A stretch of DNA of 64,000 bases. Source: the human T2T-CHM13v2.0 reference genome, Homo sapiens. The notes beneath the pieces were generated by a model. That model saw only the letters and a program-made list of their open reading frames with translations, did not search any database and was not told where the DNA came from. Positions 2,778 to 23,967 of the stretch are shown here, piece by piece (position 1 is the stretch's first letter; every line of letters starts with the position of its first letter). The stretch lies in assembly GCF_009914755.1 (NCBI RefSeq), contig NC_060934.1, one strand, 5' to 3'. The position numbers and the translations under genes were made by a program.

Positions 2778-5583
2778 CAGATGACCACTGAATAACATGG
2801 GAGTTAGGAGTGTCAAACCCCACACAGATTTTCAGCTGCATATAACTTTCAACTTCCCCAAAATTTAACAGGAATGTCTACTGTTGATCAGAAGCCTTAC
2901 CAATAACATAAACAATTAACAAACATTTTGTATGTTATAAAGCAAGCTAAAGAAAAGAAAATGTTGTTAAAACAATCATAAAAAAGAGAAAATATATTTA
3001 TTATTTGATATGGTTTGGCTCTGTCCCCACCCAAATCTCATCTTGAATTGTAGTTTCCATAATCCCCATGTGTCATGGGAGGGACACGGTGGGAGGTAAT
3101 TGAATCGTGGGGGCAGTTACCCCCATGCTGCTGTTATTGTGATAGTGAGTGAGTTCTCACAAGAGCTGATGGTTTTATAAGGGGCTTTCCCCCGTTTTGA
3201 TTGGACTTCTCCTTCCTGGCACCATATGTTTGCTTCCCCTTCGCCATGTTGTAAGTTTCCTGAGGCCTCCCCAGCCATTCTGAACCGTGAGTCAATTAAA
3301 CCTCTTTCCTTTATAAATTACCCAGTCTCACATATGTCTTTATTACCAGCATGAGAATGGACTAATACAGTATATTGGTACCACAGAGAGTGGGGTGCTG
3401 CTGTAAAGACACCCAAAAATATGGAAGCAACTTTGGAACTGGGTCACAAGCAGAGGTTGGAACAGTTTAGAGGGCTCAGAAGAAAACATGAAAATGTGGG
3501 GAAGTTTGGAACATCCTAGAGACTAGGAGAGCTCAGAAGACAGGAAGGTGTGGGAAAGTTTGGAACTTCCTAGAGATTTGTTGAACAGCTTTGACCAAAA
3601 TGCTGATAGTGATATGGACAATAAAGTCCAGGCTGAGGTGATCTCAGATGGAGAGGAGGAACTTTTTGGGAACTGGAGCAAAGGTGACTCTTGTCATTCT
3701 GTAACAAAGAAACTGGCAGCATTTTGCCCCTGCCCTAGAGACTTGTGGAACTTTGAACTTGAGAGAGATAATTTAGGGTATCTGGCAGAATAAATTTCTA
3801 AGTGACAAAGCATTCAAGAGGAAGCAGAGCATAAAAGTTCGGAAAATTTGCAGCCTGAGGATGCAATAGAATAGAAAAGCCCATTTTCTGGGGAGAAATT
3901 CAAGCCTGCTGCAGAAACTTGCATAAGTAACAAGGCCAAATGTAATCACCAAGACAATGGCTAAAATGTCTCCAGGCCATGTCAGAGACCATCACAGCAG
4001 CCCCTCCCATTACAGGCATAGAGGCCTAGGAGAAAATAATGATTTCATGGGCAGAGCCCAGGGCCCCCCTGCTGTATGCAGACTTGGGACTTGGTGCCCT
4101 GCATCCCAGCTGCTCCAGACATGGCTAAAAGGGGTCAAGGTACAGCTCAGGCTATGGCTTCAGAGGGTGCAAGCCCCAAGCCTTGGCAGCTTCCACATGG
4201 TGTTGAGCCTGTGGGTGCACAGAAGTCAAAAACTGAGGTTTAGGAACCTCTGCCTAGATTTCAGAGGATGTATGGAAATGCTTGGATGTCTAGGCAGAAG
4301 TTTGTTGCAGAGGCAGAGCCCTCATGGAGAACCTCTGCTAGGAAGTGTGGAAGGGAAATGTGGTGTGGGAGCCCCCACACAGAGTCTCCACTGGGGCACT
4401 GTCAAATGGAGTTGTGAGAAGAGGGCCACTGTCCTCCAGACCCCAGAATGGTAGATCTGCTAAGAGCTTGTGGCTGGAAAAGCAGCAGACACTCAATGCC
4501 AGCCAGTGAAAGTAGCCAGGAGGGTTGCTATACCCTGAAAAGCCACATGGGCAGAGCTGCCCAAGGCCATGGGAGCCCACCTCTTGTGTCAGTGTACCCT
4601 AGATGTGAGACATGAAGTCAAAGAGCATTTTGGAACTTTAAGGTTTAATGACTGCCCTATTGGATCTTGGACTTGCATGGGGCCTGTAGCCCCTTTGTTT
4701 TGACCAATTTTGCCCACTTGGAACAGGTGTATTTACTCAACACCTGTACCCCCATTTTACCTAGGAAGTAACTAACTTGCTTTTGATTTTATAGGCTCAT
4801 AGGTGGAAGGGACTTGCCTTATCTCAGATGAGACTTTGGACTTGTACTTTTGGGTTAATGCTGGAATGAGTTAAGACTTTGGGGGACTGTTAGGAAGGCA
4901 TGATTGTGTTTTAAAATGTGATGACACAAGATTTGGGAGGAGCCAGGGGTGGAATGATATGGTTTGGCTGTGTCCCTACCCAAATCTTATCTTGAATTTA
5001 GTTCCCATAATCCCCACGTGTCATGGGAGGGTACCTGGTGGGAGGTAATTGAATCATCTGGGTGGTTACCTCTACACTGTTGCTTTCATGATAGTGAGTG
5101 AGTTCTCATGAGATCTGATGGTTTTATAAGGGGCTTTTCCCCCTTTTGCTTGGCACTCCTCCTTCCTGTCTCCACGTGAAGAAGGACATGTTTACTTCCC
5201 CTTCTGCCATGATTGTAAGTTTCCTGAGGCCTTCCAGCCATGTTGAACTGTGAGTCAATTAAGCCTCTTTCCTTCATAAATTACCCAGTCTCAGATATGT
5301 CTTTATTAGCAGCATGAGAACAGAACGAATACACTATTCATTAAGTGGAAGTGGATTATCATGAAGGCCTTCATCCTTGTTGTCTTCACACTGAGTAGGA
5401 TGAGGAGGAGGAGAAAGAGAAAGGGTGGGTCTTGCTGTCTCAGTGGGGGCAGAGGCAGAAGAGATGGAGGAGGCAGAAAGGGAGGCAAGAGAGACAGGCA
5501 CCCTCCATGTAGCTTTTATTTTTTAAAATCTACATATAAATGCACCTGCACAGTTCAAATCCTTGTTGTTCAAGGGTCAACTA
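2778..5583. mobile_element. Tigger2-family (Tigger2a/2b-like) non-autonomous DNA transposon, split by a THE1 provirus (pieces 2778-3005 and 5334-5583)
   Basis: Terminal inverted repeats CAGATGACCACTGAATAAC / GTTGTTCAAGGGTCAACTA with TA on each side (2776-77, 5584-85). The consensus TATATTTACTATTCATTAAGTGGAAG resumes exactly after the THE1. Confidence 0.85.
3006..5333 (+). mobile_element. Full-length THE1 (THE1C/D-like) MaLR element: 5' LTR 3006-3369, internal region 3370-4954, 3' LTR 4955-5333
   Basis: Both LTRs begin TGATATGGTTTGGCT and end AATACA. The internal region starts with the typical ..TTGGTACCA..GAGTGGGG and a purine tract precedes the 3' LTR. 5-bp TSD TTATT/CTATT. ORFs 3548 and 3957 are THE1-int remnants. 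Confidence 0.95.
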
Positions 5584-6238
5584 TAAACGAATTTGTTAGA
5601 GTGACAGACAAGTACCACCTTTGCTCAAATTGTAAAACCAATATTATTAATTTTATAGCATTTTATCAGCATTTTTTCATTAAATGAATATACAATTGTC
5701 ACATTAAATCCCCTAGACTCTCATCAAAATTGTAAATCATTTCATTAGTAATCAAATAAAATTTGCAGTTTTTGGCTAAGTCATTGACAACACTCCATGC
5801 TCTGTCCCATCCTAACTCTTTCAACACCATTTTCTACCATGTAATCCAAATATACTGGGCATTTTATGCTTTCTCACTTTTACAACATCTCCCAAGGTTT
5901 TTTCCAGGTAGAACACCCTCCATTTCTCCTTGTTAAAATAATACCTGATCTTCACCACCCAACTGACATCCTATGTCCTTAGTTCAGACTTCCCTGATCC
6001 TGTCAACTGTTGGAGATCTTTTCCTCCATTAAGGTACTTACCAAAGTTTGTCTTATGTTTCTGATAATTTTCATAAGTCTCAAATAACTATAAGCATTAT
6101 GGTAACCAAGACTGTTTTAAACTTTTGTATCTCCCAAAATACTTCAGTACCATAGATCAAGTACACATTCATGAATTCTGCATCTACTACATAGTCAGAA
6201 AAGTGGAAGAATTTCTATAGTTATATTTTAATTACAAT

Positions 6239-6456
6239 TTTTTTTTATTATACTTTAAGTTTTAGGGTACATGTGCACAACATGCAGGTTTGTTACATAT
6301 GTATACATGGGCCATGTTGGTGTGCTGCACCCATTAACTCATCATTTAGCATTAGGTATATCTCCTAATGCTATTCCCTCCCACCTCCCCCCACCCCACA
6401 ACAGTCCCCGGTGTGTGATGTTCCCCTTCCTATGTCCATGTGTTCTCATTGTTCAA
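6239..6456 (-). mobile_element. 5'-truncated young L1PA (L1PA3/4-like) 3' end
   Basis: Poly-T followed by ATTATACTTTAAGTTTTAGGGTACATGTGCAC. TSD TTTAATTACAAT at 6227-6238 and 6457-6468. Confidence 0.92.
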
Positions 6457-7419
6457 TTTAATTACAATCTTTAAAATCACAGAAACTCTTGAATACATAT
6501 ACCAAAACCTTCAAGATGCCAATAAGAATTTTACTCTGTTGTGAGTGCTTGTCATTTGTAACTATATTGTTCCCACATCTAACAATCTATCACCCATAAA
6601 CATGTCAAAGTACTGTGACAAAGTATAACAAATGATTCTCCAATATTTTGAATAGATTTACTTTTAAATAAATGTTACAGATGTATTATGAAATAAGAAA
6701 TAAGCTTACAAATACATTTATTTTAACATCTTGTGTTGATTATGAGAACAATAAAAATGAGCAATTCACGGGAAAATAATTTCAGATAGATTTTGTCTCC
6801 CTACAAATGGGCATCCTGATATTCACTCTGGAATAAATACTTTAGGAAGAAGATGATATTGAGATCATATCCCTTTGTTTGGTTATCAAAGGCTTATTTT
6901 TCATGTGGAAAATTTTAAGTGCTAATAAATAATCCACTGCAAACCACATAATTTTTGAAAATAACCCCCAAATTATATACACAAACAAGTAAATTTTAGT
7001 GAATGTATGCAATTGCTATTGGCAGTTATTAGATCCTAATTACTTTTCAAAAGTGGAATTAATAATATGTAATTTAATGTCTTACAGGATATTATAAAGA
7101 TGTAATTTTATTGGACTTTGCTTCTAATACACTGAACCATAAGGCTAAATTTAAAACCACTTAGAAAAGAATATTAGAATTAAATTACAGAGAAATTTAC
7201 AACTAAATTAAGAAACTCTATCAATTAAAAAACTTTGCTGTCATCCTCAAATGTGAGTGCTTATCTAATAATATGATCCTGGACTAAGTGTTGTGTATAC
7301 TTCAGATATAAAATTTTCATATAGGCTATTCCTAGGCAAATACAAAAAGTAAACAAAAACAAAACAAAAAATACTGATGACTAGTGATCACATTAAAATA
7401 AATGACATCATAAAAGTGA

Positions 7420-7592: not shown

Positions 7593-10500
7593 TACTGAAA
7601 ATTCAAAACTTGCCATACTTTTAAAATATAGATTGGGACTAGATACAGTCAGAAATTGCCACTCCCACAGAAAGAGACCCAATTTAATATACACCAACAT
7701 AATTTGAACAAATCTTCAGAGAGAAACTACCAAACATGGATTGAGAAAAGATGCAGTCCCAGAGACTGAAGAAGAAGGAAGTTAGGCACCCAATGTGGGG
7801 TGCCTGAATGCTAAGGCTGATTTCCAAACTGGAAAGGTACCTGGGGAAGGGGATTGGTCCAGTAAGGATATGGGTTATTTCCATACCAGACCTCTCCCTA
7901 AGGGAGCCCCGTGGCCCCAAAGACCTAATAAAAACAACAACAAAATCGAAGGTACAGTGCTAGTGATTGGATGTGGCTCCCCCAAGCAGACCTGATGAGG
8001 GGGTCATCTATTTCCCCCTTGCACTGCAGAACACAGCTGCAAATGTTAACATAGACAAAGGAACCACAAGGCTGAGTAGAAGCCTATCTACTGCCCATTG
8101 CTCTCAAGGACCATCTACTAGATTGTAGCCCAAACTACAACACCAAAATCACTTTACTAATCCTGCCCTTGCAAAACCAAGAGTAAGAATTCTGCAACGA
8201 AGACACCATACAGAGCCTTAGTTCTCTAAAAACTTTCAGAAACAAAGCCAACAAAGTACACTCAATTTACACCACAATTAAAAGAATACCATCCCTCCCA
8301 GATGAGAAAGAATCAGCATAAGAACTCTGGCAATTCAAAAAGCCACACTGCCCCCTTACCTCCAAATGAGCCCACTAGCTCCCCAGAAATGTTTCCTAAC
8401 CAGTCTGAATTATCTGAAATGACAGACATAGAATTCAAAATATGGATGGCAAAGAAGCTCATTGAGATCAAGAAGAAAGTTGAAACTCAATCCAAGGAAG
8501 CCAAGCAATCCAGTAAAATGATTCAAGGGCTGAAAGGTGAAATTCTCACTTAAAGAGAGACAAAAACTTAATTTCTTGAGCTGAAAAATTCACTACAAAA
8601 ATTACATAATATAATTGGAAGTATTAACAGCAGAATAGACCAAGCTGAGGAAAGAATCTGAGAGCTCAAAGAGCAATTCTTTCAATTAACACAGTCAGAC
8701 AAAAATACAGAAAAGAGAATTGAGAAAGATGAAGAGCAGAGAGTGGGCCGAGACCTCCAATTAGAAGTAGCTATGGTGCATGGCACTCATAAAGAGGAAG
8801 AAAAGCAGTGAGTAAATACAGCACCTTCAACTGAAATATCCAGGTTTTCGCACTGGGACTGATCAGGGAAATAACCAATCCACAGAAAACAGAGAAAAGT
8901 AGGGCAGGATGATAGCCCACCTGGAAGTGACGCAAAGCCAAGGGAACCCCCACCCCAGCCAAGGAAGTGGTAAGTGAATGTGCCACCCTGGGAAACCACA
9001 TTTCTCCCATGGATCTTTGCAACCCTCAGATCAGGAGATCCCCTCATAAACCCACTCCACCAGGACCTTGGGTCAGATACACAGAGCTGTGTGGAGTCTC
9101 AGCAGGGCAGCCACTCAGGTATGCACAGAGACCCAAGAGATTTACATACCCCAGCCACAGGATCCCTGGCAAAGGTGACTACAACTCAGTCAAGGCGGGA
9201 GGTCCATACATACCCCTAGGAAGGGGGCCGAATCCAGGGAGCTGAACAGCGTCCATCTGTGGGCCCCATTTCCAAGGCACCTCACAAAATAAGACCCACT
9301 GGCTTGGAACTTCAGCCAGCCACCAGCAACAGGGTAGTGCCTGCCTGAGATGGAATGGAGCTGCCAGGGAAAGGGGTGGGCTGTCACCTTTGTTATTTGG
9401 ACAACTCAGCTGTTCAAGTCTGTGGGCTTTGGAGAGTCCAAACAGTCTGGACAAGTAAGGGACCCCCAGCACAGCACAGCACAGCTGCTCTATGAAAATG
9501 TGGCCAGACTACTTCTTTAAGTGGGACCCCAATCCATTCCACCCCACTGGGCAGGACTTCCCAATAGGGACCTCCAGCCACCCCTGCCCATATTCTAGGA
9601 AAGAACTCTGATCTCTCCCTTGGCTGGAGTGCCCAGTGGGGAGGGATGAGCTGCCAATGTTGCTTTGAGCCCATTCCAGCCTGTAGGCTTTGCAGAATCC
9701 AAGCCAATACAGGCAGAGATGGATCCCCAGCAACGCATGGCTGTTTTGTCAAGGTGTGGCCAGACTGCTTCTTTAAATAGAACCCCAATCCATTCCTCCT
9801 TGCTGGGCAGGTCCTCCCAACCAGTGCTTCCAACCACCCTCACCCATGTTCTATGGCTGACAAAGTTCTAATTTCTCCCTGTGATGGAGTGCCCAGGGGG
9901 CCAGGTGGGCTGCCACCTGTGCTGTTTGGGCATCTCACCCAGTCCAACCTGTGGGCCTCGGAAAGTGCAAAACTATATGGGGGTGAAGGGAAGCCAAACA
10001 CAGCACAGCTGCTCTACAAAAACGCAGGAAGGCTGCTTCTTTAAGGAGGTCCCTGATCCCATTCCTCCTGACTAGGTGAGACCTCCAAAACAGGGTTTCC
10101 AGCCACATCCTATGGGTGCATTCAGGCTGGCAACAGGTCAGTACTTCTCTGGGACAGAGCTCTGAGAGGAAGGGGCAGGCTGCCATCTTTGCTGTTTTGC
10201 AGCCTTCACCGGTAATACCTACAGGTACTGAAAAAACTGAGGTGACTAGGGTCTGAAGCAGCCGCCCAGCAAATCATAGCAGCCCTACAGAAAAGTGGTC
10301 AGACTGTTCAAAGAAAAAACGAGCAAAACAACAAGAACAACAACAACAAAAACCCATCCAAAGGTCAACAACCTCAAAGATCAAAGGTAGATAAGCCAAC
10401 AAAGATGAGAAAGAATCAGCACAAAAACACAGAAAACTCAAAAATCCAGTGTGCTCCCTTTCCTCTAAATGACCACAACACCTCTCCAGCAGGGATTTAG

Positions 10501-12228
10501 AACTGGACTGAGGCTGAGATGGCTGAGATGATAGAAATAGGATTCCAAATGTGGATCTAAAAAATGAACTTCACTGAGCTAAAGGAGCACTTTGCAACTC
10601 AATGCAAGGAAGCTAAGAATCATGATAAAACAATGCAGGAGCTGACAGCCAAAATAGCCAGTATAGAGAGGAATATAACCAACCTGATAGAGCTGAAAAA
10701 AACACAACAAGAACTTCACGATGCAATCACAAGTATTAATAGCAGAATAGGCCAAGCAGAAGAAAGAATCTCAGAGCTTGAAGAATGTCATTCTGAAATA
10801 ACACAGGCAGACAAAAATAGAGAAAAACAATGAAAAGGAATAAACAAAACCTCCAAGAAATATGGGATTATGTAAAGAGACTGAATCTATGACTGATTGG
10901 GGTACCTGAAAAAGATGAGGAGAATGGGACCATTTTGGATAACATAATTCAGGATATCATCCAGGAGAACTTCCCTGACCTACCTACAGAAGCCAACATT
11001 CAAATTCAGAAAATGCAGAGAACCCCAGTAAGATACTTACTCCACAAGAAGATCGTCCCCAAAACATGTAATCATCAGATCCTCCAAGGTCAAAATGAAA
11101 TAAAAAATGTCAAAGGCCACTGGAAAGAAAGGCGAGGCCACCTACAAAGGGAAGCCCATTGGACTAACAGTGGACCTCTCAGCAGAAACCATGCAAGCCA
11201 GAAGAGATTGGGGGACAATATTCAACATTTTTAAAGAAAAGAAATTCCAATGCAGAATTACATATCTAGCCAAACTAAGCTTCATAAGAGAAGAAATAAG
11301 ATCCTTTTCAGACAAGCAAATTCTGAGGGAATTTGTTACCACCAGACCTGCTTTATAAAAGCTCCTGAAGGAAGCACTAAATATAAAAAGGGAAAACTGT
11401 TGCCAGCCTCTACAAAAATACACTGAAGTATACAGACCAGTGACATTATAAAGCAACTACATAAACAAGTCTGCAAAATAACCAGCTAGCATCATGATCA
11501 CAGGATCAAATCCATACATAACAGTATTAACCTTAAATGCTCCAATTAAAAGACACAGAGTAAAAAGCTGGATAAAGAACCAAGACCCACTGGTAAGCTG
11601 TCTTCAAGAGACCCATCTCACATGCAAAAACATACACAGGCTAAAAATAAAGGGATGGAGGAAAATTTACCAACCAAATAGAAAACAGAAAAAAGCAGGG
11701 ATTGCAACCCTAGCATCTAACAAAAAAAGACTTTAAACCAAAAAATATCAAAAAAGACAAAGAAGAGTATTACATAATGATAAAGGGTTCAATTCAACAA
11801 GAATAGCTAACTGTCCTAAATATATGTGCACCCAAAACAGGAACACCCAGATTCATAAAGCAAGTTCTTAGAGACCTTCAAAGAGACTTAGACTCCCACA
11901 CAATAATAGTGGGAGACTTTAAAACCCCATTGACAATATTTTCTAATATCTCTATCATCAAGACAGAAAATTAACAAAAATATTCAGGACCTGAACTCAA
12001 CTCTGGATCAAGTGGAACTGACAGATATCTATAGAACTCTACACCCCAGAACAACAGAATATACATTCTTCTCATTGCCACACATCACTTACTCTAAAAT
12101 TGGTCACATAATCAGAAGTAAAACACTCCTCAGCAAATGTAAAAGAACTGAAATCATAATGAACAATCTCTCAGACCACAGTGCAATCAAATTAGAAATC
12201 AAGATTAAGAAATGCATTCAAACCCACA

Positions 12229-12602
12229 TAATATGGTTTGGCTGTGCTCCCACCAAAATCTCCTCTTGAATTGTACTTCCCAAAATCTCCACCTCTCATG
12301 GGAGGAACCTGGTGGGAAGTAATCAGAACATGGGGGCAGTTTCCTCCATGCTGTTCTCATAATAGTGAGTGAGTTCTCAGGAGAGCTGATGGTTTTATAA
12401 GAATCTGACATTTCCCCTGCTGGTACTTCTCTCTCCTGCCACCTTGTGAAAAAGAACATGCTTGCTTCCCCTTCTGCCATGACTATAAGTTTCCTGAGGC
12501 CTCCCCAGCCATGTGGAACTGTGAGTCAATTAAACCTCTTTTCTCTACAAATTACCCAGCCTGGGGTATTTCATCATAGCAGCATGAAAACAAATTAATA
12601 CC
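12229..12602 (+). mobile_element. THE1D-like solo LTR inserted in the endonuclease domain of L1 ORF2
   Basis: Runs from TAATATGGTTTGGCTGTG to AATACC. Perfect 5-bp TSD CCACA (12224-28, 12603-07). Confidence 0.92.
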
Positions 12603-14082
12603 CCACAAAATTACATGGAAATTGAATAACCTGTTCCTGAACAACTGTTGGATAAATAATAAAATTAAGGCAGAAATCTTGAAATTAATGAGAACAAAAA
12701 TACAACATACCAAAATCTCTGGAACCCAGTTAATGCAGTGTTAAGAGGGAAACTTACAGCACTAAATTCCCACATCAAAATGTTAAAAAGATCTGAAATT
12801 AACAACCTAACATCACAACTAAAAGAACTAGGAAACCAAGAGTGAACAAATAACAAAGCTAGCTGAAGACAATAAATAACCAAAAGCAGAGCTAAACTAA
12901 AGGAGATAGAAACATGAAAAACCTTTCAAAAGATCAAAAATCCAGAAGCTAATTTTCTGAAAAAAAGTTAATAAAATAGACTGCTAACTAGACTAATAAA
13001 AAAGAAAAGAGAGAAAATTCAAATAAACACAATCAGAAATGACATGGAGGATATTACCACTGACCCACAGAAATAAAAACGACCATGAGAGAATGTTATG
13101 AACACCTCTATGCACACAAATTGAAAATCTAGAAGAAATGGACAAATCCCTGGACACATACACCCTCCCAAGACTGAACCAGAAAGAAACTGAGTCCCTG
13201 AACAGATCAACAACAAGCTCTGAAATCAAATCAGTAATGAATAGCCTATCAACCAAAAAAAGCCCATAACCAGATGGATTCACCGCTTAACTCTACCAGA
13301 GGTACAAAGAAGAGCTGGTACCATTCCTATTGAAACTATTCCAAACAATTGAAAAGCAGGGACTCCCCCATAACCCATTCTATGAGGCCAGCATCATCCT
13401 GATACTAACACCTGGCAGAGATATAACAAAAAAGAAAACTTCGGGCCAATATCCTTGATAAACATTGATACCAAAAATCCTCAACAAAATACTGGCAAAC
13501 TGAATCTAGCAGCACATCAAAAAGCTTATCTACCATGATTAAGTAGTCTTCATCCCTGGAATGCAAGTTTCGTTCAACACACACAGATCTATAAATGTGA
13601 TTTATCACATAAACAGAACTAAAAACAAAAAACACATGATTATCTCAACAGATGCAGGAAAGGCCTTTGGTAAAAATTAGCATCCTTTCATGTAAAAAGC
13701 TCTCAATAAACTCGGTTTTGAAGGAACATACCTCTAAATAATAAGAGCCATATATGAGAAACCCACAGCCAATATACTGAATGGGCAAAAGCTGGAAGCA
13801 TTCCCCTTAAAAACTGGCACAAGACAAGGATGCCCTCTCTTACCACTCCTAGTCAACATAGTATTGGAAGTTCTGACCAGGGAAATCAGGCAAGAAAAAG
13901 AAATAATGTGTATTCAAATAGGAAAGGAAGAAGTCAAACTCTCTTCGTTTGCAGGTGACATAATTGCGTATCTAGAAAACCCCACTGACTCACCCCAAAA
14001 GCTTCTTAAGGTGATAAGCAACTTCAGCAAAGTCTTAGGATACAAAAATCAATGTGCGAAAATCACTACCATTCCTGTGGAA

Positions 14083-14430
14083 CAACAGCAGGCAAGTAGA
14101 GAGCCAAATCATAAATGAACTCCCATTCACAATTGCCACAATGAGAATAAAGTACCTAGGAATACAGCTAACAGGGAAGTGAAGGACCTCTTTGAGAAGA
14201 ACTACAAACCACTGCTCAAAGAAATCAGAGATGACACAAACAAATGGGAAATCATTCAACAACAGGCAAGTAGAGAAACAAATCATAAATGAACTCCCAT
14301 TCACAGTTGCCACAATGAGAATAAAATACCTAGGAATAGAGCTAACACGGAAGTGAAGGACCTCTTCAAGGAGAACTACAAACCACTGTTCAAAGAAATC
14401 AGAGATGACACAAACAAATGGAAAATCATT
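14083..14430 (+). repeat. 174-bp tandem duplication within L1 ORF2 (14083-14256 and 14257-14430)
   Basis: Two adjacent copies CAACA.CAGGCAAGTAGAG...AAATCATT with about 12 differences by eye. Confidence 0.9.
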
Positions 14431-16094
14431 CCATGCTAATGAATAGGAAGAATCAATGTTTTGAAAATGGCCATACTGTCCAAAGTAATTTATAGATTCA
14501 ATGCTATTCCCATCAAGCTACCATTAACATTCTTTACAGAAATAGAATAAAATATTTTAAAATCAATACGGAACCAAAATAGAACTCGTATAGCCAATCC
14601 TAAGCAAAAAGAACAAAGCTAGAGGTACCACATTCCCTGACTTCAAACTCTACTACAGGGCTACAGTAACCCAAACAGCACAGTACTGGTACACGAACAG
14701 ACACATAGACCAATGGAACAGAATACAGAACCCAGAAATAAGACTGCACACCTACAACCATCTGATATTCAACAAACCTGACAAAAATGAGGAATGGGGA
14801 AAGGATTCCCTATTTAATAAATGGTTCTGGGAGAACTGGCTAGCCCTATGTAGAAAATTAAAACTGGACCCCTTCCTTACACTATATATAAAAATCAACT
14901 CAAGATGAATTAAAGACTTAAATGTAAAACCCAAAATTATAAAAACCCTAGAAGAAAACCTAGGCAGTACTATTCAGGACATAGGCACAGGCAAAGATTT
15001 CATGATGAAGATGCCAAAAACAACTGCAACAAAAGCAAAAATTGACAAATGAGATCTAATTAAACTAAAGAGCTTCTGCACAGCAAAAGAAACTATCATC
15101 AAGTGAACAGATAACCTACAGAGTGGGAGAAAATTTTTGGAAACTATGTATCTGACAAAGGTCTAATATCCAGCATTTAAAAGGAACTTAAATTTACAAA
15201 AAAAAAAAAAAAAAAAGCCATTATAAAGTAGGCAAAGGACTGAACAGACACTTCTCAAAAGAAGACATACATGCATGTGGCCAACAAACATGTGAAAAAA
15301 AGCTCAACATCACTGATCAGTAGAGAAATGCAAATCAAAACCACAATGAAATACCATCTCATGCCAATCATAATGGCAACTATTAAAAAGTCCAGAAACA
15401 ACAGATGCTGGCAAGGTTGCAGAGAAATAGGAACACTTTTACACTGTTGGTGGGAGTGTAAGTTAGTTTAACCATTGTGGAAGACAGTGTGGTGATTCCT
15501 CAGAGATCTAGAGGCAGAACTACCATTTGACCCAGCAATCCCATTACTGGTTATATACCCAAAGGATTATAAATCATGCTACTATAAAGACGCATGCACA
15601 CGTATGTTTATTGCGGCACTATTCATAATAGCAAAGACATGGAATTAACCCAAATGCCCATCAATGATAGACTGGATAAAGAAAATATAGTACACATACA
15701 CTATGGAATACTATGCAGCCATAAAAAGGAACAAGATCGTGTCCTTTGCAGGAACATGGATGGAGTTGGAAGCTGTTATCCTCAGCAAACTAATGCAGGA
15801 ACAGAAAACGAAACACCATATGCTCTCACTTATAAGTGGGAGGTGAATGATGAGAACACATGAACACATTGAGGGGAATAACACACACTGGAGGCTGTTA
15901 GGGGTGGAGGTGGGGTAGGGGGAGGGAAAGCATCAGGAAGAATAGCTAAGGGATTCTGGGCTTAATACCTAAGTGTTGGGTTGATTGTGCAGCAAACTAT
16001 CAAGGCAAATGTTTACCTATGTAACAAACCTGCAAATCTTGCACATGTACTCTGGAACTTAAAATAAAAGTTGAAGGACAAATATTTTTTAAAA

Positions 16095-16851
16095 AGAAAT
16101 GCAAATCAAAGCCACAATGAGATACCATCTCACACCAGTCAGAATGGCTACTGTTAAAAAGTCAAAAAATAACAGATGCTGGAGAGGTCGTGGAGAAAGA
16201 GGAACACTTACACACTGTTGGTGAAGAGTGGAAATTAGTTCAACCATTGTGGAAGACAGTGTGGCAATTCCTCAAAGACCTAAAGACAAAAATACCACTG
16301 GACCCAGCAATCCCATTACTGAGTATATACCCAAAGGAATACAAATCATTCTGTAATAAGACTCATGCACACATATGTTTACTGCAGCACTATTCACAAT
16401 AGAAAAGATATAGAATCAACATAAATGCCCATCAAAGATAGACTGGATTAAAAAATGTGGCTCATATACACAATGGAATACTATGCAGCCATAAAAAGGA
16501 ATGAGATCATGTCACTTGCAGGGACATGGATAGAGTTGGAGGCCATTATCCTTAGCAAACCAACACAGGAACTGAAAACCAAACACCAAGTTTTCACTTA
16601 CAAGTGGGAGCTAAATGATAATAACACATAGACACATGGGGGGAACAACACACACTGGGTCCTGTCAAAGGGCAAGGGGTGAGAGGAGGGAGAGGATGAG
16701 GAAGAATAGCTAGTGGATGCTGGGCTTAATACCTGGGTGGTGGAATGATCTGTGGAGCAAACCACCATGGCACACATTTACCTATGTAATAAATCTGCAC
16801 AACCTGTACATGTACCCCTGAACTTAAAATAAAAGTTGGAAATATAAAAAA
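16095..16851 (+). mobile_element. Second L1PA (PA11/12-like) 3' end, ~750 bp
   Basis: Restarts at AGAAATGCAAATCAAA in the ORF2 C-terminus and runs to AATAAAAGTTG at 16828. Confidence 0.9.
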
Positions 16852-17664
16852 TAGTGTTGGCAAGAGTACAGAGAAAAGGGAACTCTTCCACACTATTGGT
16901 CAGAATGTAAATTAGTACAGCCTTATGGATGATGCTTCCCCCCACCCAAAAAAAAAAAAAAACCCACAGAAATAAAGCTACCATATGATCCAGCAATCCC
17001 AATATGTAATAAAGTATGTCCCACTACTAGGTATATACCCAAAGTAAATGAATCAGTATTTCAAAGAGATTTCTGCTCCCCTATGTTCACTGCAGCCAAG
17101 ACACAAAATCAACCTAAGTGTCCATCCACAGATGAGTAGATAAAGAAAATGTGTTATATATACACAGGGGGAACCTGTTCAGCCTTAAAAACAAAGGAAA
17201 GCTTTTGATTTGCCACAACATTGATGAGTCTGGAGAACATTATGTTACATAAAATTAGCCAAGCACAGAAAGACAAATACTGCATGATCAAACTTGTGTG
17301 TGGAATCCAGAAAAGTCAAACTCATAGAAGCAGAGTAAAAATAGTGGTTAACAGAGGCTGGGAGTGAGGAGATGGGTTACCCAGAAAAATGCTGGTGAAA
17401 GGATACAAAATTTCAGTTAGACATGAAGAATAAGTTCGAGAAATGTACAACATGAGGACCACAGTTAATGGCAATGAGTTGTGTACCTTAAATTTCCAAA
17501 GACAGCAGATTTTAAGTGTTCTCATTACAAAAAAATGAAAAGTATATGAGGTCATGTGTATGCTAATTAGCTTGATATAATCATTCCACAATGTCTACAT
17601 ATTTCAAAACATCATGTTGTATGCCATAAATATATACAATTTTTGTCAAGTAAAAATTTTTAAA
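16852..17664 (+). mobile_element. L1MA (MA6-9-like) 3' end
   Basis: GTGTTGGCAAG..AGAAAAGGGAAC start, then the L1MA 3'UTR ..GATTTTAAGTGTTCTCA..AATTAGCTTGAT..AAAACATCATGTTGTA..TTTGTCAA. Confidence 0.85.
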
Positions 17665-19507
17665 GGCCGAATTTACTCAAAGGTTAATTTAATATGACCA
17701 AAACTGAGTGGTTCAAGGGATTTGCTTATAGGCATTTCTAGGTCATTGACTCAATTCCTTTTTATGGTCATAGTTTTCAGTAACTTGGCTCTGTGTAGCA
17801 GCCCATTCCAAATGAGGATCTGTACCCTGTTATATTTCTGTTTTGTCCACAACTGAGAAGAATATTCATTGGATTGTGTATCTGAGTTAGGGGAAAGTCT
17901 AGTGCTTCTAGAAAACTCCATGACAACTGTAGATCAATGCACAGTTTTCTGCCTTGAAACTTGAAATTTCAATTGTAAGACAATATTAAATAGAATAAAA
18001 AATGATACTCTGGCAAATATAACAGAGTTTTCCTTTTTTGTGGGAGTGTCAGATTTTGAGTTTTACAGGAGAACTAGGCCTTCTAATTCTGATTTGACTT
18101 TCCAACTAACATCAAACTTAGAGCTCCATATCTGAGGGATAACTGGACTGGTGATTGTGCAAAATATTTCTGTCTTGCATTTAAAGTTGTAACGAATTGA
18201 TAGAAATCAATCTTACCAGCACTGGCTGTCATTTAATTCTTATTCTTAACTTTGGTGATAAAAAAAAATAAATCTGTTGAATCTGTGCAAAGAAGCCTTT
18301 CTGAGACCAAAATGGCAGCTAAAATTATTTCTGTAATTAATTTCTGCCTTGTGTGTCAATGTTCTTTAGAATATAAATGATTTTGTAAATACTTGGCAGC
18401 AATTTGTTTAATTTGGAAGGGCACAAAGTACACTCCATTGAGTTGGCAAATGCAACATCCTTCTAAATATTTTTCCTAAAACATCAAGTATATTATATGT
18501 ATTTAAATTTATATTACAACACTTTTCTGAGAAAGTGTAATTTTTAATTATGACCTAAGTCTGACTACATGCATGTCTTTGCCTTCTTGTTTCATGCATT
18601 CATTAGCAATTTGAATAGAATTTTAATAAAATTCAACAAAAAGAAAAATGAACAAAACATCTGAGAAATATGGGATTATGACCAAATATATGATTCATCA
18701 GCATTCCTAAGAAATAAGGAGAGAGAATAAGCAACTTGTAAAATACATTTGAGGACACAGGCATGAAAACTTCTCTAGTGTCACTACAGACATTGACATG
18801 CAAATCCAAGAAATACAGAGAATTTCAGCCAGATACTATACAAGATGACCCTACCCGAGGCACATAGTCATCAGAATCACCAAGATCAATGCAAAAGAAG
18901 AAATCTAAAAGGCAGCTAGAGAGAAAGTGCAGGTCACCTACAGAGGGAATCCCACCAGGCTAGAAGCAGATTTCTCAGAAAAAACCTTACAAGCCAGAAG
19001 AGATTAGGGGCCTATTTTCAGTGTCCTTAAAGAAAGGAAATTCCAACCAAAAATTTTTATATCCTACCAAACTAAGCTTCATAACTGAAGGAGAAATAAG
19101 AGGCTTCTCTGACAAGCAAATGCTGAGGGAATACGTTTAAACTAGAGTAGCCTTACAAGAGGTCCTTAAGGGAGTTCTAAACATGAATTCAAAAGAATGA
19201 CACCTGCCACCACAAATGCACACTTAAGCACATAGCTCACAGGCACTATAAAGCAACTACACAAGAACCAGCTAACAATACAATGATAGAATCAAAATCA
19301 CATATATCAATAATAACCTTGAATGTAAATGGGCTAAACAGCCCACTCAAAAGACACAGAGTGGCAGGCTGGATAAAAAGACAAGACCCAACCAATCTGT
19401 TGTTTTCAAGAGACCCATCTTACATGTAATGACACCCACAAACTCAACGTAAAAGTATGCGGTAAGATCTACCATGCAAACAGAAAACAAAAAAGAGCAG
19501 GTGTCAC

Positions 19508-19623
19508 CATTCCTCATCATTCATTCATTCTTCATCATTCAATTTTCATTCTTCATCTTTCATCATTCATTCTTCATGTTTCATCATTCATTCTTCATTC
19601 ATTCATCATTCATTCATTCATCA
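19508..19623 (+). repeat. Compound (TTCA/TCA/TTC)n simple repeat expanded inside L1 ORF2
   Basis: Visible directly. It interrupts the consensus ATTCTT..ATCAGATAAAACAG. Confidence 0.9.
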
Positions 19624-22600
19624 GATAAAACAGATTTTAAACACATAAAAATGAAGGACAATGAAGGGCACTGCATAACAATAAAGGATACAGTCCGACA
19701 AGAAGCCTTAACTATACTAAATATATACACACCCAACTTTGGAGCACTGAGATTTATACAACAACTTCTTCTTGGCCTAGGAAAACACTTAAACAACCAC
19801 ACAATAATAGTGGGAGACTTCAACACCCTACTGACAACATTAGATCATCAAAGCACAAAACTAACAAAGAAACTCTGGACTTCAACTCAACACTTGACCA
19901 AATGGGCCTATAAAGCACTCCATCCAACAACCACAGAATATGCATTCTTCTCATCTGCACACAGAACATATTCAAAGATCAACCACATGCTCAGTCATAA
20001 AGCAGGCCTCAATAAATTCAGAAAGAAATTGAAACTATACCAAGTATACTCTCAAACCACAGTGTAATAAAACTAGACATCAATACCAAAATGATCTCTC
20101 AAAATTACACAAATAAATGGAAAGTAAGCAACTTATTCCTGAATAACTCCTGGGTGAACATAGAAATTAAGGCAGAAATTTAAAAAATTATTTGAAGTTA
20201 ATGAAAATAGGAACACAACTTACCAAAATCTCTGAGATATAGCCAAAGCAGTGTTAAGAGGAAAATTAATAGTCCTAAATGCCTTCATCAAGAAGTTAGA
20301 AAGGTCTCAAATTAACAAACTAACTTTGCACCTACAGGAACAAGAAAGAAAGAGAACAAACCAACTCCAAAGCTAGCAAAAGAAAAGAAATAACTAAAAT
20401 TAAAGAAGATCTTAATGAAATTGAGATGCAATAAACCATACAAAAGACCAATGAAACCAAGAATTGGTTCTTTGAAAAACTAAGACTGGTAGAATCCCTA
20501 ACTAAATCAACAAAGAAAAAGAAAGAGACTATCCAAATAAGCAAAATCAGAAACAACACTAATGATATTACAACTGATCCCACAGAAATACAAAAGAACC
20601 TCAGAGACTACTATGAACAACTCTAGGCACACAAATTAGAAAATCTAAAGGAAATGGATAAATTCCTGGAAGCATACAATCTCCAAAGATGGAATCATGA
20701 AGAAATTGAAACTCTGAATAGACCAATTTTAACTTCTGAAATTGAATCAATAATAAAGAACCTACCAAGCAAAAAAAGCCCTGGACCAAGTGAATTCACA
20801 CCCCAATTCTACCAGACATACAAACAAGAACTGATACTAATCCTACTGAAGCTATTCCAAAAAACTGAGGAGCAGGGGCTCCTCCCTAACTTATTCTATA
20901 AGACAAGCATCAGCCTGATACCAAAATCAGGCAGAGATACAACAACAACAACAAACTTCAGACTAATATCCCTCATAAACACAGATGCAAAAATCCTCAA
21001 CAAATATTAGCAAATTGAATCTAGCAGCACATCAAAAAGTTAATACACCACAATCAAGTAGGCTTTATTCTTGGGATTCAATACTGAAATCACATTTGTT
21101 GTGATTTGTGATTTGCTGTGTTGCAAGATTGCAAATACTTGCATATGTTGCAAATCATATTTGCGTTTGTTGCACATGTTGCAAATCAACAAACATGATT
21201 CACCACACAAACAGAATCAAGAGCAAAAACTATAGGATCATCTCAATAGATGCAGAGAAACCTTTTGATAAAATTCAACATTCCTTCATTATAAAAATCC
21301 TCAATAAACAAAGGAACATACCTCAAAATAATAAAAGCCATCCAGGCAAACCCACAGCCAACATCAGACTGAATGGGCAAATGATGGAAATATTTCCCTT
21401 GAGAACTAGAACAAGACAAGGCTGCCTACTCTCACCACTTCTCTTCAACATAGTACTGGAAGTCCTTGCCAGATCAACCAGGCAAGAGAAAGAAATAAAA
21501 GGAATTTGAAAAAGAAAAGAAGAAGTCAAACTCTTTTCACTGACGATATGATTTTGTACCTAGAAAACCCTAAAGACTGCTAAAAGGTTCCAAGAATTAA
21601 TAAGCAACTTTAGCAAAGTTTCAGGATAAAATCAATGTACAAAAATCAGTATCATTTCTATACACCAGCAACATCCAGGCTGAGAGTAAAATCTAGAACA
21701 CAATTCCACTTACAATAGCCACAAATAAAATGAAGTATCTAGGAATACAGCTAACCAGGAGGTGAAAGATCTCTATAAGGAGAACAACAAAACATTGGTG
21801 AAAGAAATCAGTGATAATGCAAATAAATGGACAAACATTCCATACTCATGAATTGAAAGAATCAATATTGTTAAAATGACCATACTGCCTAAAGCAATTT
21901 ACAGTTACTGCTATTCCTGTCAAACTACTAATGTCACTGTTTACAGAATTAGAAAACACTATTTTAAAATTCATATAGAACGACAAAAGAGTGTGAATAG
22001 CCAAAACAATACTAAGCAAAAGGAAAAAAGACAGAGACATTACACTACCCAACATGAAACTGTACTACAAGGATATGGTAATCAAAACAGCATGGTATTG
22101 GTACAAAAATAGAAACATAGACCAATTGAACAGGTTAGAGAACCCAGAAATAAAGCCACACACCTACAACTATCTGATATTTAACAAGGCTGACAAAAAT
22201 AAGCAATGGGGAAAGGACTCCCTATTCAATAAATGGTGCTGGGATAACTGGCTAGCCATATGCAGAAGACTGAAGCTGGGCCCATACTTTTTACCATATA
22301 CAAGAATGAACTCAAAATGGATTAAACATTTAAATGTAAATCCTCAAACTATAAAAATCCTAGAAGAAAACCCAGGAAATAGTCTTCTCAACATTGGCCT
22401 TGGCAAAGAATTTATGGCTAAGTCCCCAAATGCAACTGCAATAAAAACAAAAATATAGTGAGAACTAATTAAACTAAAGAGCTTCTGCATGGCAAAAAAA
22501 ACTATGAACAGAGCAAAGAGACAACCTATAGAATGATACAAGATATTTGCAAACAAGGCATCCAACAAAGCCTAATATCCAGAATCTATGGTAAAAAATA

Positions 22601-22641
22601 AATAACAAGCAGAAAATAACCCCATTAAAAAGTGGACAAAT

Positions 22642-23170
<529 letters not shown>

Positions 23171-23967
23171 TTAGTACGGCCACTGTGGAAAGCAGTCGGG
23201 AGATTTCTCAAATAATTTAAAACATAGCTACCATTAGACCCAGCAATCCCACTACTGGGTATATATGCAAAAGAAAATAAATCATTCTACCAAAAAGACA
23301 CATGTACTTGTACATTCATCACTGTGCTAGTCACAATAGCAAAGACATAGAATCAACCCAGGTGCCCATCAATGGTAGATTGGATAAAGAAAAAATAGTA
23401 CATATACACCATGGAATACTGTGTAGCCATAAAAAAAAATGAAAATGTGACTTTTGCAGCAACATGGATGGAGCCCTTGGAGGTCATAATCCTAAGCAAA
23501 TTAATGGAGGAACATATAACCAAATACCACGTTTGCACTTATAAGTGGGAGCTAAGCCTTGTGCACACATGGACATCAGTATGGGAAAAATAGACATTGT
23601 GGACTCCAAGAGGGTGGAAGGCAGGGGATATTGGGTTAAAAATCTACCTACCAGGTACTAGGCTCACTACAACAGTGGACGGGATCTATACCCCAAACCT
23701 CGGCATCATGCAATATTCCCATGTAACAAATCTGCACATGTACCCCCTGTATCTACAAGTTGAAATTAAATAATAACAATAATAAAAAGTAAAAGTGCCT
23801 GGGGTGGGGGAAGGTATTATCAAGGTGTAAGTTTTCAGAGTGGATCTACCCTAAAAGTCCTTATAGAAAGCCGGTTTATTTTATTCAATAAAACAAAAGA
23901 AAGGAAATAACTCTAAGACAAAAGATAGGGTTGTCACATGTTGTAAATATAATCTTCATTCATATAC

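What the first reader, a model, noticed from the sequence alone, without database searches (positions are those of the whole stretch)
8722..18652. Ancient ~9.9-kb L1 insertion carrying a 1.8-2.5 kb 3' transduction, nested inside another L1's ORF1
Seen: ORF1 of the host L1 stops at ..GAATT GAGAAAGATGAA (8722-33) and resumes at AAGAAAAATGAA CAAAAC.. (18641-52). These form a 12-bp TSD with 2 mismatches at a TT|AAGA endonuclease-type site. Between them, in order, lie a full-length L1, a second L1PA 3' end, an L1MA 3' end and ~970 bp of non-L1 DNA ending in AATAAA (18625-30) and a short A-run. Established: L1 transcripts read through their weak polyA signal and mobilise downstream flanking DNA. Inference: the whole block was one RNA copied from a donor locus elsewhere. 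This also explains why an apparently older L1MA piece and unique DNA sit inside a younger L1's ORF1.
Basis: partly seen in the sequence, partly recalled or inferred. Interest (0 to 1): 0.85.

Follow-up and report, generated by a model that had tools for sequence, protein, structure and literature searches.

The report
Composite L1 insertion carrying chr4 DNA
A 9.9-kb block sitting inside an older L1 element consists of two L1 copies followed by 1.8 kb copied through RNA from chromosome 4, an ordinary though tidy example of L1 elements moving neighbouring DNA around the genome.

Summary
The host L1 ORF1 is cut at 8733/18641, and both edges repeat the same 12 nt (10 of 12 identical) at a TT|RAGAAA endonuclease-type site.

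The block has three parts:
- A: a full-length L1, 8734-16096.
- B: a 5'-truncated L1 of a more basal subfamily, 16097-16851.
- C: 16853-18640.

C has exactly one paralog, chr4:98,624,836-98,626,626 (81% identity over 1.8 kb). There the L1MA continues upstream, and similarity stops 7-11 nt after AATAAA. C is therefore an RNA-mediated copy of chr4.

However, the chr4 site is empty: no L1 sits at the junction. A, B and C are equally old within error, about 0.09-0.10 substitutions per site per lineage.

L1 tails directly followed by a truncated same-sense L1 are common: 3 of 58 sampled, plus 2 more found separately. The A-B junction therefore needs no special donor.

My reading is that B's lost progenitor on chr4 transduced C. 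A was then joined either by template switching in one event, or because B+C landed in A's tail.

This is a known phenomenon and of low interest.

The parts
8277..8733 (+). Host (older) L1, ORF1 left piece; the last 12 nt (8722-8733, GAGAAAGATGAA) are the 5' copy of the target-site duplication, preceded by TT
   Evidence: Aligns to A coordinates 1647-2106 at 70% identity. The end maps on the same 12 nt of A's ORF1 as the start of the right piece. Sequence read.
8734..16096 (+). A: full-length, decayed L1 (7.36 kb). It carries a long 5' UTR, a later solo-LTR insertion and a 174-bp tandem duplication. Its own 3' end is ..AAAGTTGAAGGA (to 16078), followed by CAAATATTTTTTAAAAAG.
   Evidence: 5' end compared with 7 relatives. 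Pfam ORF1 and RT domains found. 3' end compared with 29 relatives. All reading frames are broken; the longest + strand ORF is 126 aa.
16097..16851 (+). B: 5'-truncated L1 3' end (755 bp). It starts at AAATGCAAATC in ORF2 and ends ..AAAGTTGGAAATATAAAAAA.
   Evidence: 82% identical to A's own 3' end. Many of its relatives end ..GTTGGAAAT(A/T)AAAAA, unlike A's relatives, which end GTTGAAG(G)AAAAA. It branches more basally than A in the ML tree.
16853..17664 (+). C1: L1MA-like 3' end fragment, copied from chr4:98,624,836-98,625,640
   Evidence: Contiguous alignment with chr4; K2P 0.222 over 778 nt.
17665..18640 (+). C2: non-L1 DNA copied from chr4:98,625,640-98,626,622. AATAAA lies at 18625-18630; only 0-4 A lie beyond the chr4 homology.
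   Evidence: One paralog in the whole genome, 85% identity; K2P 0.141 over 965 nt. The chr4 sequence diverges after ..AATAAAATTTAACAAAA.
18641..23770 (+). Host L1 right piece (rest of ORF1, ORF2, 3' UTR); the first 12 nt (AAGAAAAATGAA) are the 3' copy of the target-site duplication
   Evidence: Aligns colinearly to A coordinates ~2102-7336. Junction shown. Host tail seen at ~23770-23790.

Best explanation
**Shown**
- The block 8734-18640 is a product of L1 target-primed reverse transcription. It lies inside one 12-bp target-site duplication, at a TT|RAGAAA site in the ORF1 of an older L1.
- Its last 1.8 kb (C) is an RNA-derived copy of chr4:98.6248-98.6266 Mb. That stretch comprises an L1MA 3' end plus unique DNA, and the copy ends at a poly(A) site.

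**Inferred**
- C was carried as a 3' transduction by the L1 directly upstream of it. A full-length progenitor of B sat in the chr4 L1MA on an allele that is no longer present. Its transcript ran past its own poly(A) signal to the AATAAA 1.8 kb downstream. The RNA was then copied into chr10 with 5' truncation to 755 nt of L1.
- The full-length L1 A, from a slightly more derived subfamily, became its upstream neighbour in one of two ways:
  - In the same event, the reverse transcriptase jumped from the B+C RNA at an A-rich site onto the poly(A) end of a second L1 RNA (A) and copied it to its 5' end.
  - A was inserted first with this duplication, and B+C then landed in A's 3' end. That end reads TTTTTT|AAAAAG, a perfect endonuclease site.

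I cannot separate these two routes with one genome.
For: **One duplication around the whole block**
- The duplication is 10 of 12 identical. Both copies map to the same 12 nt of an independent L1 ORF1, and the host is otherwise colinear.
- TT precedes the 5' copy. This gives a bottom-strand YYYY/AA site, within the variants listed in passages of the review PMC4859970.

**C comes from chr4 through RNA**
- C has one paralog genome-wide, and the alignment is contiguous over 16853-18644.
- On chr4 the L1MA continues upstream, and unique DNA continues downstream past AATAAAATTTAACAAAA|TGATGCC. The chr4 locus is therefore the parent.

**An L1 tail sits directly upstream of C**
- B's 3' end reads ..GTTGGAAATATAAAAAA, the same type of end seen in many of its 29 relatives.
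- This is the "two homopolymer stretches" layout described for transductions in passages of PMC4859970.

**The source is probably not an mRNA**
- The chr4 locus lies 66 kb beyond the UNC5C TSP1 exon and 105 kb beyond its ZU5 exon, on their 5' side, and on the opposite strand.
- It is colinear with genomic DNA, including a repeat. An L1-driven read-through is therefore a more natural source than an mRNA.

**The three parts are equally old within error**
- ML end branches: A 0.096, B 0.105.
- C versus chr4: K2P 0.176, or about 0.088 per lineage.

**The A-B junction is a generic arrangement**
- 3 of 58 sampled L1 3' ends (L015, L018, L046) are followed directly by a 5'-truncated same-sense L1.
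- 2 of 39 other hits in the junction search (chrX:45.03 Mb, chr3:109.76 Mb) show the same arrangement. All start at A-rich internal sites.

**Single-event chimeras have precedent**
- PMC13174262 reports 452 Alu/L1 chimeras, each a poly(A)-bearing retroelement fused to a truncated L1 within one duplication. Most date from early primate evolution (section read).
Against: - No L1 is present at the chr4 junction; the site is clean and empty. The donor therefore has to be postulated as a lost allele.
- No sibling insertion sharing the B-C junction was found: 0 of 39 other scored hits span it. However, only 40 of 4192 candidates were scored.
- C has almost no A tail of its own: 0-4 A between the end of chr4 homology and the duplication.
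- The chr4 site where C begins (..GATAAC|AAGTGTTGG) is not a good endonuclease site unless the cut lay a few nt upstream in AAAAGATAACAAG.
- Against the tail-insertion route:
  - B is from a more basal subfamily, and its end branch is not shorter than A's (0.105 versus 0.096, a difference within one standard error).
  - Almost no A-rich DNA lies after C, where two or more tails would be expected.
- Against the template-switch route: no L1/L1 chimeras with a full-length 5' partner were found in the passages I read.
- Divergence of C from chr4 is uneven (0.08-0.24 per 150-nt bin; the L1MA part is higher than the unique part). This makes the dating rough.
Confidence: 0.55

Rival explanations
1. 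One 9.9-kb read-through RNA was driven by the full-length L1 A from a donor locus that already read A | B | L1MA 3' end | unique DNA. It was polyadenylated at the AATAAA and inserted full-length in one step.
For: - One duplication bounds the whole block, and A reaches the family's true 5' end.
- C ends at a poly(A) signal of the parental locus.
- B is not younger than A (end branches 0.105 versus 0.096, and a more basal subfamily). This is what a resident dead copy downstream of a younger active L1 would show.
- A's own 3' end carries a short extra tag (CAAATATTTTTTAAAAAG), shared closely with 1 of 29 relatives (L049). A's lineage may therefore be prone to reading past its poly(A) signal.
Against: - The only parental locus (chr4) has neither A nor B. 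Two successive insertions would have had to occur on an allele that was then lost. The second would also have had to land exactly at the first one's end.
- The model further requires read-through of two L1 poly(A) signals and several AATAAA motifs inside C, followed by full-length copying of 9.9 kb.
- The A-B adjacency it was invoked to explain is common in the genome without any transduction.
- No second genomic copy of the same A-B junction was found. The 2 of 39 junction-spanning hits have L1PA-type upstream elements and different start points.
Confidence: 0.15
2. C is an independent retrocopy of a polyadenylated non-L1 transcript from the chr4 locus. It was 5'-truncated inside the L1MA, was not driven by any L1, and was mobilised in trans. 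It lies next to B for one of two reasons:
- It landed in an existing L1 tail, as one of three serial insertions.
- The reverse transcriptase switched templates twice (C RNA, then B RNA, then A RNA), giving a tripartite chimera.
For: - The chr4 site shows no trace of an L1 donor.
- C starts right after an A-rich run of the L1MA (AAAAGATAACAAG). That is the kind of place where truncation or switching junctions are seen in the other L1-L1 examples.
- Tails attract further retroelements. In L039/L045 and L051, L1 3' ends are followed by a same-sense Alu shortly after the tail.
- Double template jumps are reported for a fungal LINE (PMC2104539; title and abstract only, from the listing).
Against: - The source is colinear genomic DNA with no sign of splicing. 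It lies, as far as I can place it, antisense within the UNC5C gene body (plus the recalled gene span).
- Retrocopies usually derive from abundant mRNAs, and L1 proteins strongly prefer their own RNA (recalled).
- Three serial hits, or two switches, are needed.
- There is hardly any A-rich DNA after C, where stacked tails would be expected.
Confidence: 0.2
3. The three parts are not linked by retrotransposition. A DNA-level event, such as segmental duplication, double-strand-break repair capture or gene conversion, placed chr4 DNA here. On this view the apparent duplication is a chance match in purine-rich sequence.
For: - The duplicated 12-mer is low-complexity purine-rich sequence with 2 mismatches.
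- C has almost no A tail.
Against: - Both 12-mers map to the same ORF1 positions of an independent L1, with exact host colinearity on both sides.
- All parts are in the same orientation, and each ends in an L1 3' end or a poly(A) signal.
- Homology to chr4 stops 7-11 nt after AATAAA, although chr4 continues with unrelated DNA.
- TT|R precedes the duplication, as expected of an endonuclease site.
Confidence: 0.03

Closest known systems
L1 3' transduction (Moran 1999; Goodier 2000; Pickeral 2000; these are cited in PMC4859970, of which I read passages)
   Same: - An L1 3' end with its own short A-run is followed by foreign DNA colinear with a single distant locus.
- That DNA ends at a downstream AATAAA.
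- The whole unit lies inside one target-site duplication at an endonuclease-type site.
- The length (1.8 kb) is within the known range.
   Different: - The parental locus has no L1 in this assembly. This resembles the orphan transductions from non-reference donors listed in PMC4859970, except that here the L1 part is retained.
- The final A tail is nearly absent.
- A second, full-length L1 of another subfamily lies upstream within the same duplication.
Single-event chimeric L1 insertions by RT template switching or RNA ligation (U6/L1, Alu/L1 and mRNA/L1; Law & Burns 2026, PMC13174262; sections 10, 12 and 40 and passages read)
   Same: - The 5' partner is complete at its 3' end, including its A-run.
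- The 3' partner is a 5'-truncated L1 in the same orientation.
- One duplication bounds both.
- The components come from subfamilies of similar age.
   Different: - Here the 5' partner is a full-length 7.4-kb L1 rather than a small RNA or an Alu.
- The 3' partner also carries a transduction.
- Contemporaneous arrival, which is that paper's criterion, could not be tested here.
Nested or serial insertion of retroelements into the A-rich tails of resident elements
   Same: - The arrangement is same-orientation and head-to-tail, with junctions in A-rich sequence.
- It is seen repeatedly in my own sample: 3 of 58 L1 tails are followed by an L1, and others by an Alu.
   Different: - It predicts that B+C is younger than A, and that A-rich duplications flank B+C.
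- Neither prediction is evident. The ages are equal within error, with B from the more basal subfamily, and only AAAAAG is found on each side.

Membership tests
L1 3' transduction | Foreign segment lies directly downstream of an L1 3' end and its A-run, in the same orientation | tested here: met
   B ends ..AAAGTTGGAAATATAAAAAA at 16851 and C starts at ~16853.
L1 3' transduction | Segment is colinear with one parental locus elsewhere, and that locus continues beyond the segment on both sides | tested here: met
   The single paralog is chr4:98,624,836-98,626,626. The L1MA continues upstream and unique DNA continues downstream.
L1 3' transduction | Parental locus carries the source L1 immediately upstream of the segment | tested here: not met
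   The chr4 L1MA is uninterrupted across the start of C, and no A- or B-type L1 is there. This applies to this one assembly only. A lost or polymorphic donor cannot be tested.
L1 3' transduction | Segment ends at a downstream poly(A) signal followed by a second A tail | tested here: inconclusive
   AATAAA lies at 18625-18630 and is conserved on chr4. Homology ends 7-11 nt later. Only 0-4 A are not accounted for by chr4 or by the duplication.
L1 3' transduction | Target-site duplication and endonuclease-type site flank the L1 plus the segment | tested here: met
   GAGAAAGATGAA and AAGAAAAATGAA match at 10 of 12 positions and are preceded by TT. Both map to the same ORF1 positions. The duplication encloses A as well as B and C.
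Single-event chimeric L1 insertion (template switching) | Parts are fused head-to-tail inside one duplication, with no duplication around the individual parts | tested here: inconclusive
   The outer duplication is present. Inner junctions are A-rich: AAAAAG occurs before B (16091-16096) and again after C (18638-18643). A short inner duplication therefore cannot be excluded.
Single-event chimeric L1 insertion (template switching) | All parts arrive contemporaneously, present or absent together across species | not testable with these tools
   No other primate genomes were available. The proxy is age: 0.096 (A), 0.105 (B) and ~0.088 (C) substitutions per site, equal within error.
Processed retrocopy of a cellular mRNA | Source is a spliced, polyadenylated gene transcript | tested here: not met
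   C is colinear with genomic chr4 DNA, including an L1MA fragment, with no intron loss. The locus is on the strand opposite the UNC5C exons at 98,521,702 and 98,560,046. No transcript annotation for chr4 was available, so an unannotated + strand RNA is not excluded.

The most novel reading that the evidence does not exclude
The whole block was made in one target-primed reverse transcription. The L1 reverse transcriptase began on a transduction-bearing L1 RNA from chr4. After 2.5 kb it jumped from an A-rich site onto the poly(A) end of a second, full-length L1 RNA of a different subfamily, and copied all 7.4 kb of it.

This would be a natural L1/L1 RNA recombinant. The five other tail-to-head L1-L1 junctions seen here would then hint that such L1-to-L1 jumps are a frequent and uncatalogued class of chimeric insertion. 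They could also be a route to mosaic L1 lineages.
Probability: 0.3. Interest if true: 0.5.

Novelty: new member of a known kind. Interest (0 to 1): 0.3.

Why it matters
It is a clean, datable example (roughly 40 million years old, using a recalled neutral rate of 2.2e-9 per site per year) of an L1 moving 1.8 kb of another chromosome's DNA. The parental locus has been identified and the donor element is gone.

Its practical value is as a test case for separating three routes to L1-L1-flank composites: serial tail insertions, template-switch chimeras and long read-through transcripts. The frequency I saw, 3 of 58 L1 tails followed directly by a truncated same-sense L1, suggests this class deserves the same species-alignment census that has been done for U6/L1 and Alu/L1 chimeras.

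No function is implied for the host gene CTNNA3. The annotated MIR7151 hairpin is simply part of A's 5' UTR, on the opposite strand.

Tried and rejected
**A inserted later, exactly at the 5' edge of a pre-existing B+C**
- This would reuse the same nick site and leave three copies of the target.
- Rejected: the A-rich string before B (AAAAGAAATGCA) matches the left copy at only 7 of 12 positions, against 10 of 12 for the outer pair.
- The host site reads AGAAA[G/A]ATG, not B's AGAAATG (reading).
- A's relatives show that the L1 5' end does not need the host's trailing AA.

**A+B as a post-insertion tandem duplication of A's 3' end**
- Rejected: K2P between them is 0.207. The 3' termini are of different types and the tree positions differ.
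- For contrast, the real 174-bp internal duplication in A has K2P 0.073.

**chr10 as parent and chr4 as copy**
- Rejected: chr4 extends beyond C on both sides.

**Looking for sibling insertions**
- C itself has only 2 loci in the genome.
- For the B-C junction, 0 of 39 other scored hits span it.
- For the A-B junction, 2 of 39 span it, but these are independent L1PA-type cases.
- These searches scored only 40 of 4192 and 40 of 8130 candidates, and common words are skipped. Absence is therefore weak evidence.

**Other steps that led nowhere**
- Rfam at gathering thresholds over 8000-19500 gave 0 matches, so there is no family model for the annotated miRNA.
Seven 70-nt stretches, and later two 601-nt stretches, were fetched instead.
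- No repeat library, no primate orthologs and no chr4 gene table were available. Subfamily names (L1PB-like, L1MA, THE1/MST-like LTR) and the UNC5C gene span are recalled, not tested.
- Supplementary tables of PMC13174262 were not opened. They might list this locus or L1/L1 cases.

Full report
**The observation**

The window is chr10:68,262,001-68,326,000 of T2T-CHM13, in an intron of CTNNA3 (hub note).

The host L1's ORF1 reads ..GAAAAGAGAATT GAGAAAGATGAA up to 8733. It resumes at 18641 with AAGAAAAATGAA CAAAACATCTGAGAAATATGGG.

I used the full-length L1 inside the block as an internal coordinate reference.
- The left host piece (8277-8729) aligns to its positions 1647-2106.
- The right host piece (18629-19501) aligns to 2090-2966.
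- The host then continues colinearly to its 3' end near 23770.
- A close-up shows that the end of the left piece and the start of the right piece both fall on the same ~12 nt of that reference ORF1, TGAAAAGGAATAAAC.

The host is therefore one element, interrupted without loss, and 12 nt are duplicated (10 of 12 identical). TT precedes the 5' copy. This gives a bottom-strand YYYY/AA cut site, within the range of L1 endonuclease sites tabulated in the review PMC4859970 (passages).

**Anatomy of the block**

*A (8734-16096)* is a decayed full-length L1.
- Seven of seven fetched relatives with the same 5' UTR type begin within a few nt of A's first base. None needs the host's last bases.
- Pfam finds Transposase_22 and Tnp_22_dsRBD at 10893-11358 and RVT_1 at 13738-14118 on the + strand.
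- No open frame exceeds 126 aa on that strand.
- A's L1 sequence ends ..AAAATAAAAGTTGAAGGA at 16078, followed by CAAATATTTTTTAAAAAG.

*B (16097-16851)* starts inside ORF2 at AAATGCAAATC and ends ..AAAGTTGGAAATATAAAAAA.

*C (16853-18640)* is an L1MA-like 3' end (to 17664) followed by non-L1 DNA. AATAAA lies at 18625-18630.

A whole-genome search with 17665-18640 finds exactly one other locus, chr4:98,625,640-98,626,622, on the + strand at 85% identity.

I fetched 19 kb of chr4 around it.
- Window 16853-18644 aligns contiguously to chr4:98,624,836-98,626,626 (81.5% over 1836 columns).
- On chr4 the L1MA continues upstream. Window ORF2 segments 13333-13866 and 14433-15727 match chr4:98,622,630-98,623,162 and 98,623,868-98,625,169 at ~70%. 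The second of these runs straight across the point where C begins.
- Downstream, chr4 reads ..TTTTAATAAAATTTAACAAAA|TGATGCCTGTTAACG.., unrelated to the window after that point.

Chr4 is therefore the parent. The copy ends 7-11 nt after a conserved AATAAA, and an RNA intermediate is the natural explanation.

**What the test does not show**

The chr4 site is empty. There is no L1 of A's or B's type at 98,624,836; the old L1MA simply continues. The donor L1 must therefore be postulated on a lost allele, whichever L1 it was. Only 1.8 kb can be traced to chr4, not 2.5 kb.

**Where the parental locus lies**

- Pfam searches of the genome place a TGF_beta_GS exon at chr4:98,439,734 (+). From recall this is BMPR1B.
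- A ZU5 exon lies at 98,521,702 (-) and a TSP_1 exon at 98,560,046 (-). From recall these belong to UNC5C.
- The parental stretch lies 66 kb further towards that gene's 5' end, on the opposite strand.
- From the recalled ~390-kb span of UNC5C, the stretch is probably intronic and antisense.
- It is colinear with genomic DNA and includes a repeat, so it does not look like part of a spliced mRNA.

This makes an L1-driven read-through more plausible than an ordinary retrocopy. I had no transcript annotation for chr4, however.

**A and B are different elements of similar age**

*Sequence differences*
- Over their shared 734 aligned nt they differ by K2P 0.207.
- Many of B's 29 sampled relatives end ..GTTGGAAAT(A/T)AAAAA. 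Most of A's 29 relatives end ..GTTGAAG(G)AAAAA.

*Position in the tree*
- I built an ML tree of 63 L1 3' ends, rooted on the host element.
- A sits inside a clade with 97% SH-aLRT support that excludes B, and B branches more basally.

*Ages*
- End branches are 0.096 (A) and 0.105 (B). The medians are 0.079 for A's relatives and 0.089 for B's.
- C differs from chr4 by p = 0.155 and K2P 0.176 over 1743 nt, or about 0.088 per lineage if the two lineages are equal.
- That divergence is uneven: 0.08-0.24 per 150-nt bin, 0.222 in the L1MA part and 0.141 in the unique part.
- Within these errors (about ±0.012 each), A, B and C are equally old. With a recalled neutral rate of 2.2e-9 per site per year, that is roughly 40 million years.

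B is not a later duplication of A's end. The ages neither require nor exclude a single event. The one directional hint is that B is not younger than A, which goes weakly against B+C having arrived after A.

**The A-B junction is a common kind of junction**

- Among the 58 L1 3' ends fetched as relatives, three (L015, L018, L046) are followed directly after their short A-run by a 5'-truncated L1 in the same orientation.
- In several others a same-sense Alu follows the tail: shortly after it in L039/L045 (one duplicated locus) and L051, and after a ~40-nt spacer in L024.
- A search with the A-B junction itself gave 2 of 39 other hits that span it.
- On inspection these two have L1PA-type upstream ends. 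Their downstream L1s start 22-35 nt upstream of B's start, at or near the internal A-run GAAAAAAAGCTCAAC. They are independent cases, not siblings.
- In all of these the truncated element begins at an A-rich internal site.

Two routes would give that pattern. In the first, a new L1 inserts into a resident tail and its 5' end joins by microhomology. In the second, the reverse transcriptase jumps from an A-rich stretch onto another RNA's poly(A). Law & Burns (PMC13174262; sections 10, 12 and 40 read) document 452 Alu/L1 chimeras of the second kind inside single duplications, mostly from early primate evolution. They use species presence/absence to tell the two routes apart.

Because the A-B arrangement is generic, it does not call for a donor locus that already contained A next to B.

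**Weighing the readings**

- two successive insertions at one point of chr4 on an allele that was then lost;
- read-through of two L1 poly(A) signals;
- full-length copying of 9.9 kb.

*B's progenitor as carrier* requires:
- one lost insertion on chr4;
- an ordinary truncated transduction;
- one generic junction event with A.

I therefore put about 0.15 on the single RNA and about 0.55 on B+C as the transduction unit joined to A. The second figure is split roughly evenly between a template switch in the same event and insertion into A's 3' end.

Points bearing on that split:
- A's 3' end, TTTTTT|AAAAAG, is a perfect endonuclease site. AAAAAG recurs right after C (18638-18643), which could be a short inner duplication.
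- Against tail insertion, there is almost no A-rich DNA after C, where stacked tails should be. B is also not younger than A.

I put about 0.2 on C being an independent, non-L1-driven retrocopy that was joined by serial tail hits or by two template switches. A DNA-level origin is very unlikely, given the duplication, the orientation and the poly(A)-site boundary.

**Comparison with what is known**

This works like a classical L1 3' transduction and meets most of its defining features. The exceptions are a donor L1 at the parental locus (tested, not met in this assembly) and a clear terminal A tail (0-4 A). It also resembles single-event chimeric L1 insertions, but the defining criterion, contemporaneous arrival, cannot be tested with one genome.

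It is a new example of known processes, not a new kind of thing. Interest is modest. The more novel reading is a natural L1/L1 template-switch recombinant, together with the hint that such junctions are frequent. It is open at about 0.3 and would be settled by the species alignments listed under next steps.

**Limits**

- No repeat library, primate orthologs or chr4 annotation were available.
- Whole-genome DNA searches scored only 40 of thousands of candidates.
- Subfamily and gene names are recalled.
- I did not open the supplementary tables of PMC13174262, which might bear on L1/L1 cases.

Noticed in passing
window 12229-12604 (+): A ~375-bp insert interrupts ORF2 of A. It matches four other places in the window (3008-3368, 4954-5363, 28839-29206, 45558-45983 minus) and chr4 L003, at 60-77% identity. 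The flanks read ACCCACA / ACCCCACA, like a short duplication. From recall it looks like a THE1/MST-type MaLR solo LTR; no library was available to test this. The host L1 lacks it, so it entered A or A's source separately.
   Followed up: partly
window 14083-14431 (+): Tandem duplication of 174 bp within A's ORF2, two copies at 93% identity (K2P 0.073). This is far less diverged than A is from its relatives, so it arose well after the insertion, or the copies were homogenised.
   Followed up: partly
window 9355-10306 (+): A's 5' UTR contains diverged internal repeats with a period of about 270 bp (self-matches at 63-68% identity, offsets ~270 and ~530). TRF did not report them. The 5' UTR is long: ORF1-homologous sequence starts about 1.65 kb into A.
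   Followed up: no
window 9666-9725 (-): The annotated MIR7151 lies inside A's 5' UTR repeat region on the opposite strand. The 80-nt stretch folds into a hairpin of -35.6 kcal/mol, z = -4.7, with 0 of 200 shuffles as stable. No Rfam family matched at gathering thresholds. It is thus an L1-5'UTR-derived hairpin. The papers listing it were seen as a search listing only.
   Followed up: partly
window 16079-16096; L049 (chrX:130,300,646-130,301,408, minus): A's L1 end is followed by CAAATATTTTTTAAAAAG rather than a plain A-run. One of 29 relatives (L049) ends GGATAAAATAATTTTTTAAAAG, nearly the same string. Four others (L050, L053, L055, L063) have AAAAAATAT/ATTTT-like continuations. This may be a short 3' tag inherited from a shared source locus. 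L049 is not A's nearest neighbour in the tree, so this is unresolved.
   Followed up: partly
L015 (chr18:22.637 Mb), L018 (chr3:122.975 Mb), L046 (chr1:60.569 Mb), L072 (chrX:45.035 Mb), L073 (chr3:109.762 Mb): Five further loci where an L1 3' end and short A-run are followed directly by a 5'-truncated L1 in the same orientation. Each truncated element starts at an A-rich internal site; two of them (L015, L018) start at the same AAGAAAATGTGG site. In my sample of 58 tails the frequency was 3 of 58.
   Followed up: partly
L039 and L045 (chr13:51,698,294 and chr13:51,556,836): Two L1 3' ends with the same downstream Alu, almost identical to each other (end branches 0.0095 and 0.013). They lie 140 kb apart in opposite orientation. 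This looks like a recent inverted segmental duplication on chr13.
   Followed up: no
window 16853-18636 versus chr4: Divergence between C and its parent is uneven. The L1MA part has p = 0.190, while the unique part has 0.126, with a minimum of 0.080 at 18087-18237. This could reflect alignment trouble near indels, rate variation, or constraint on the chr4 unique sequence. It was not resolved.
   Followed up: partly
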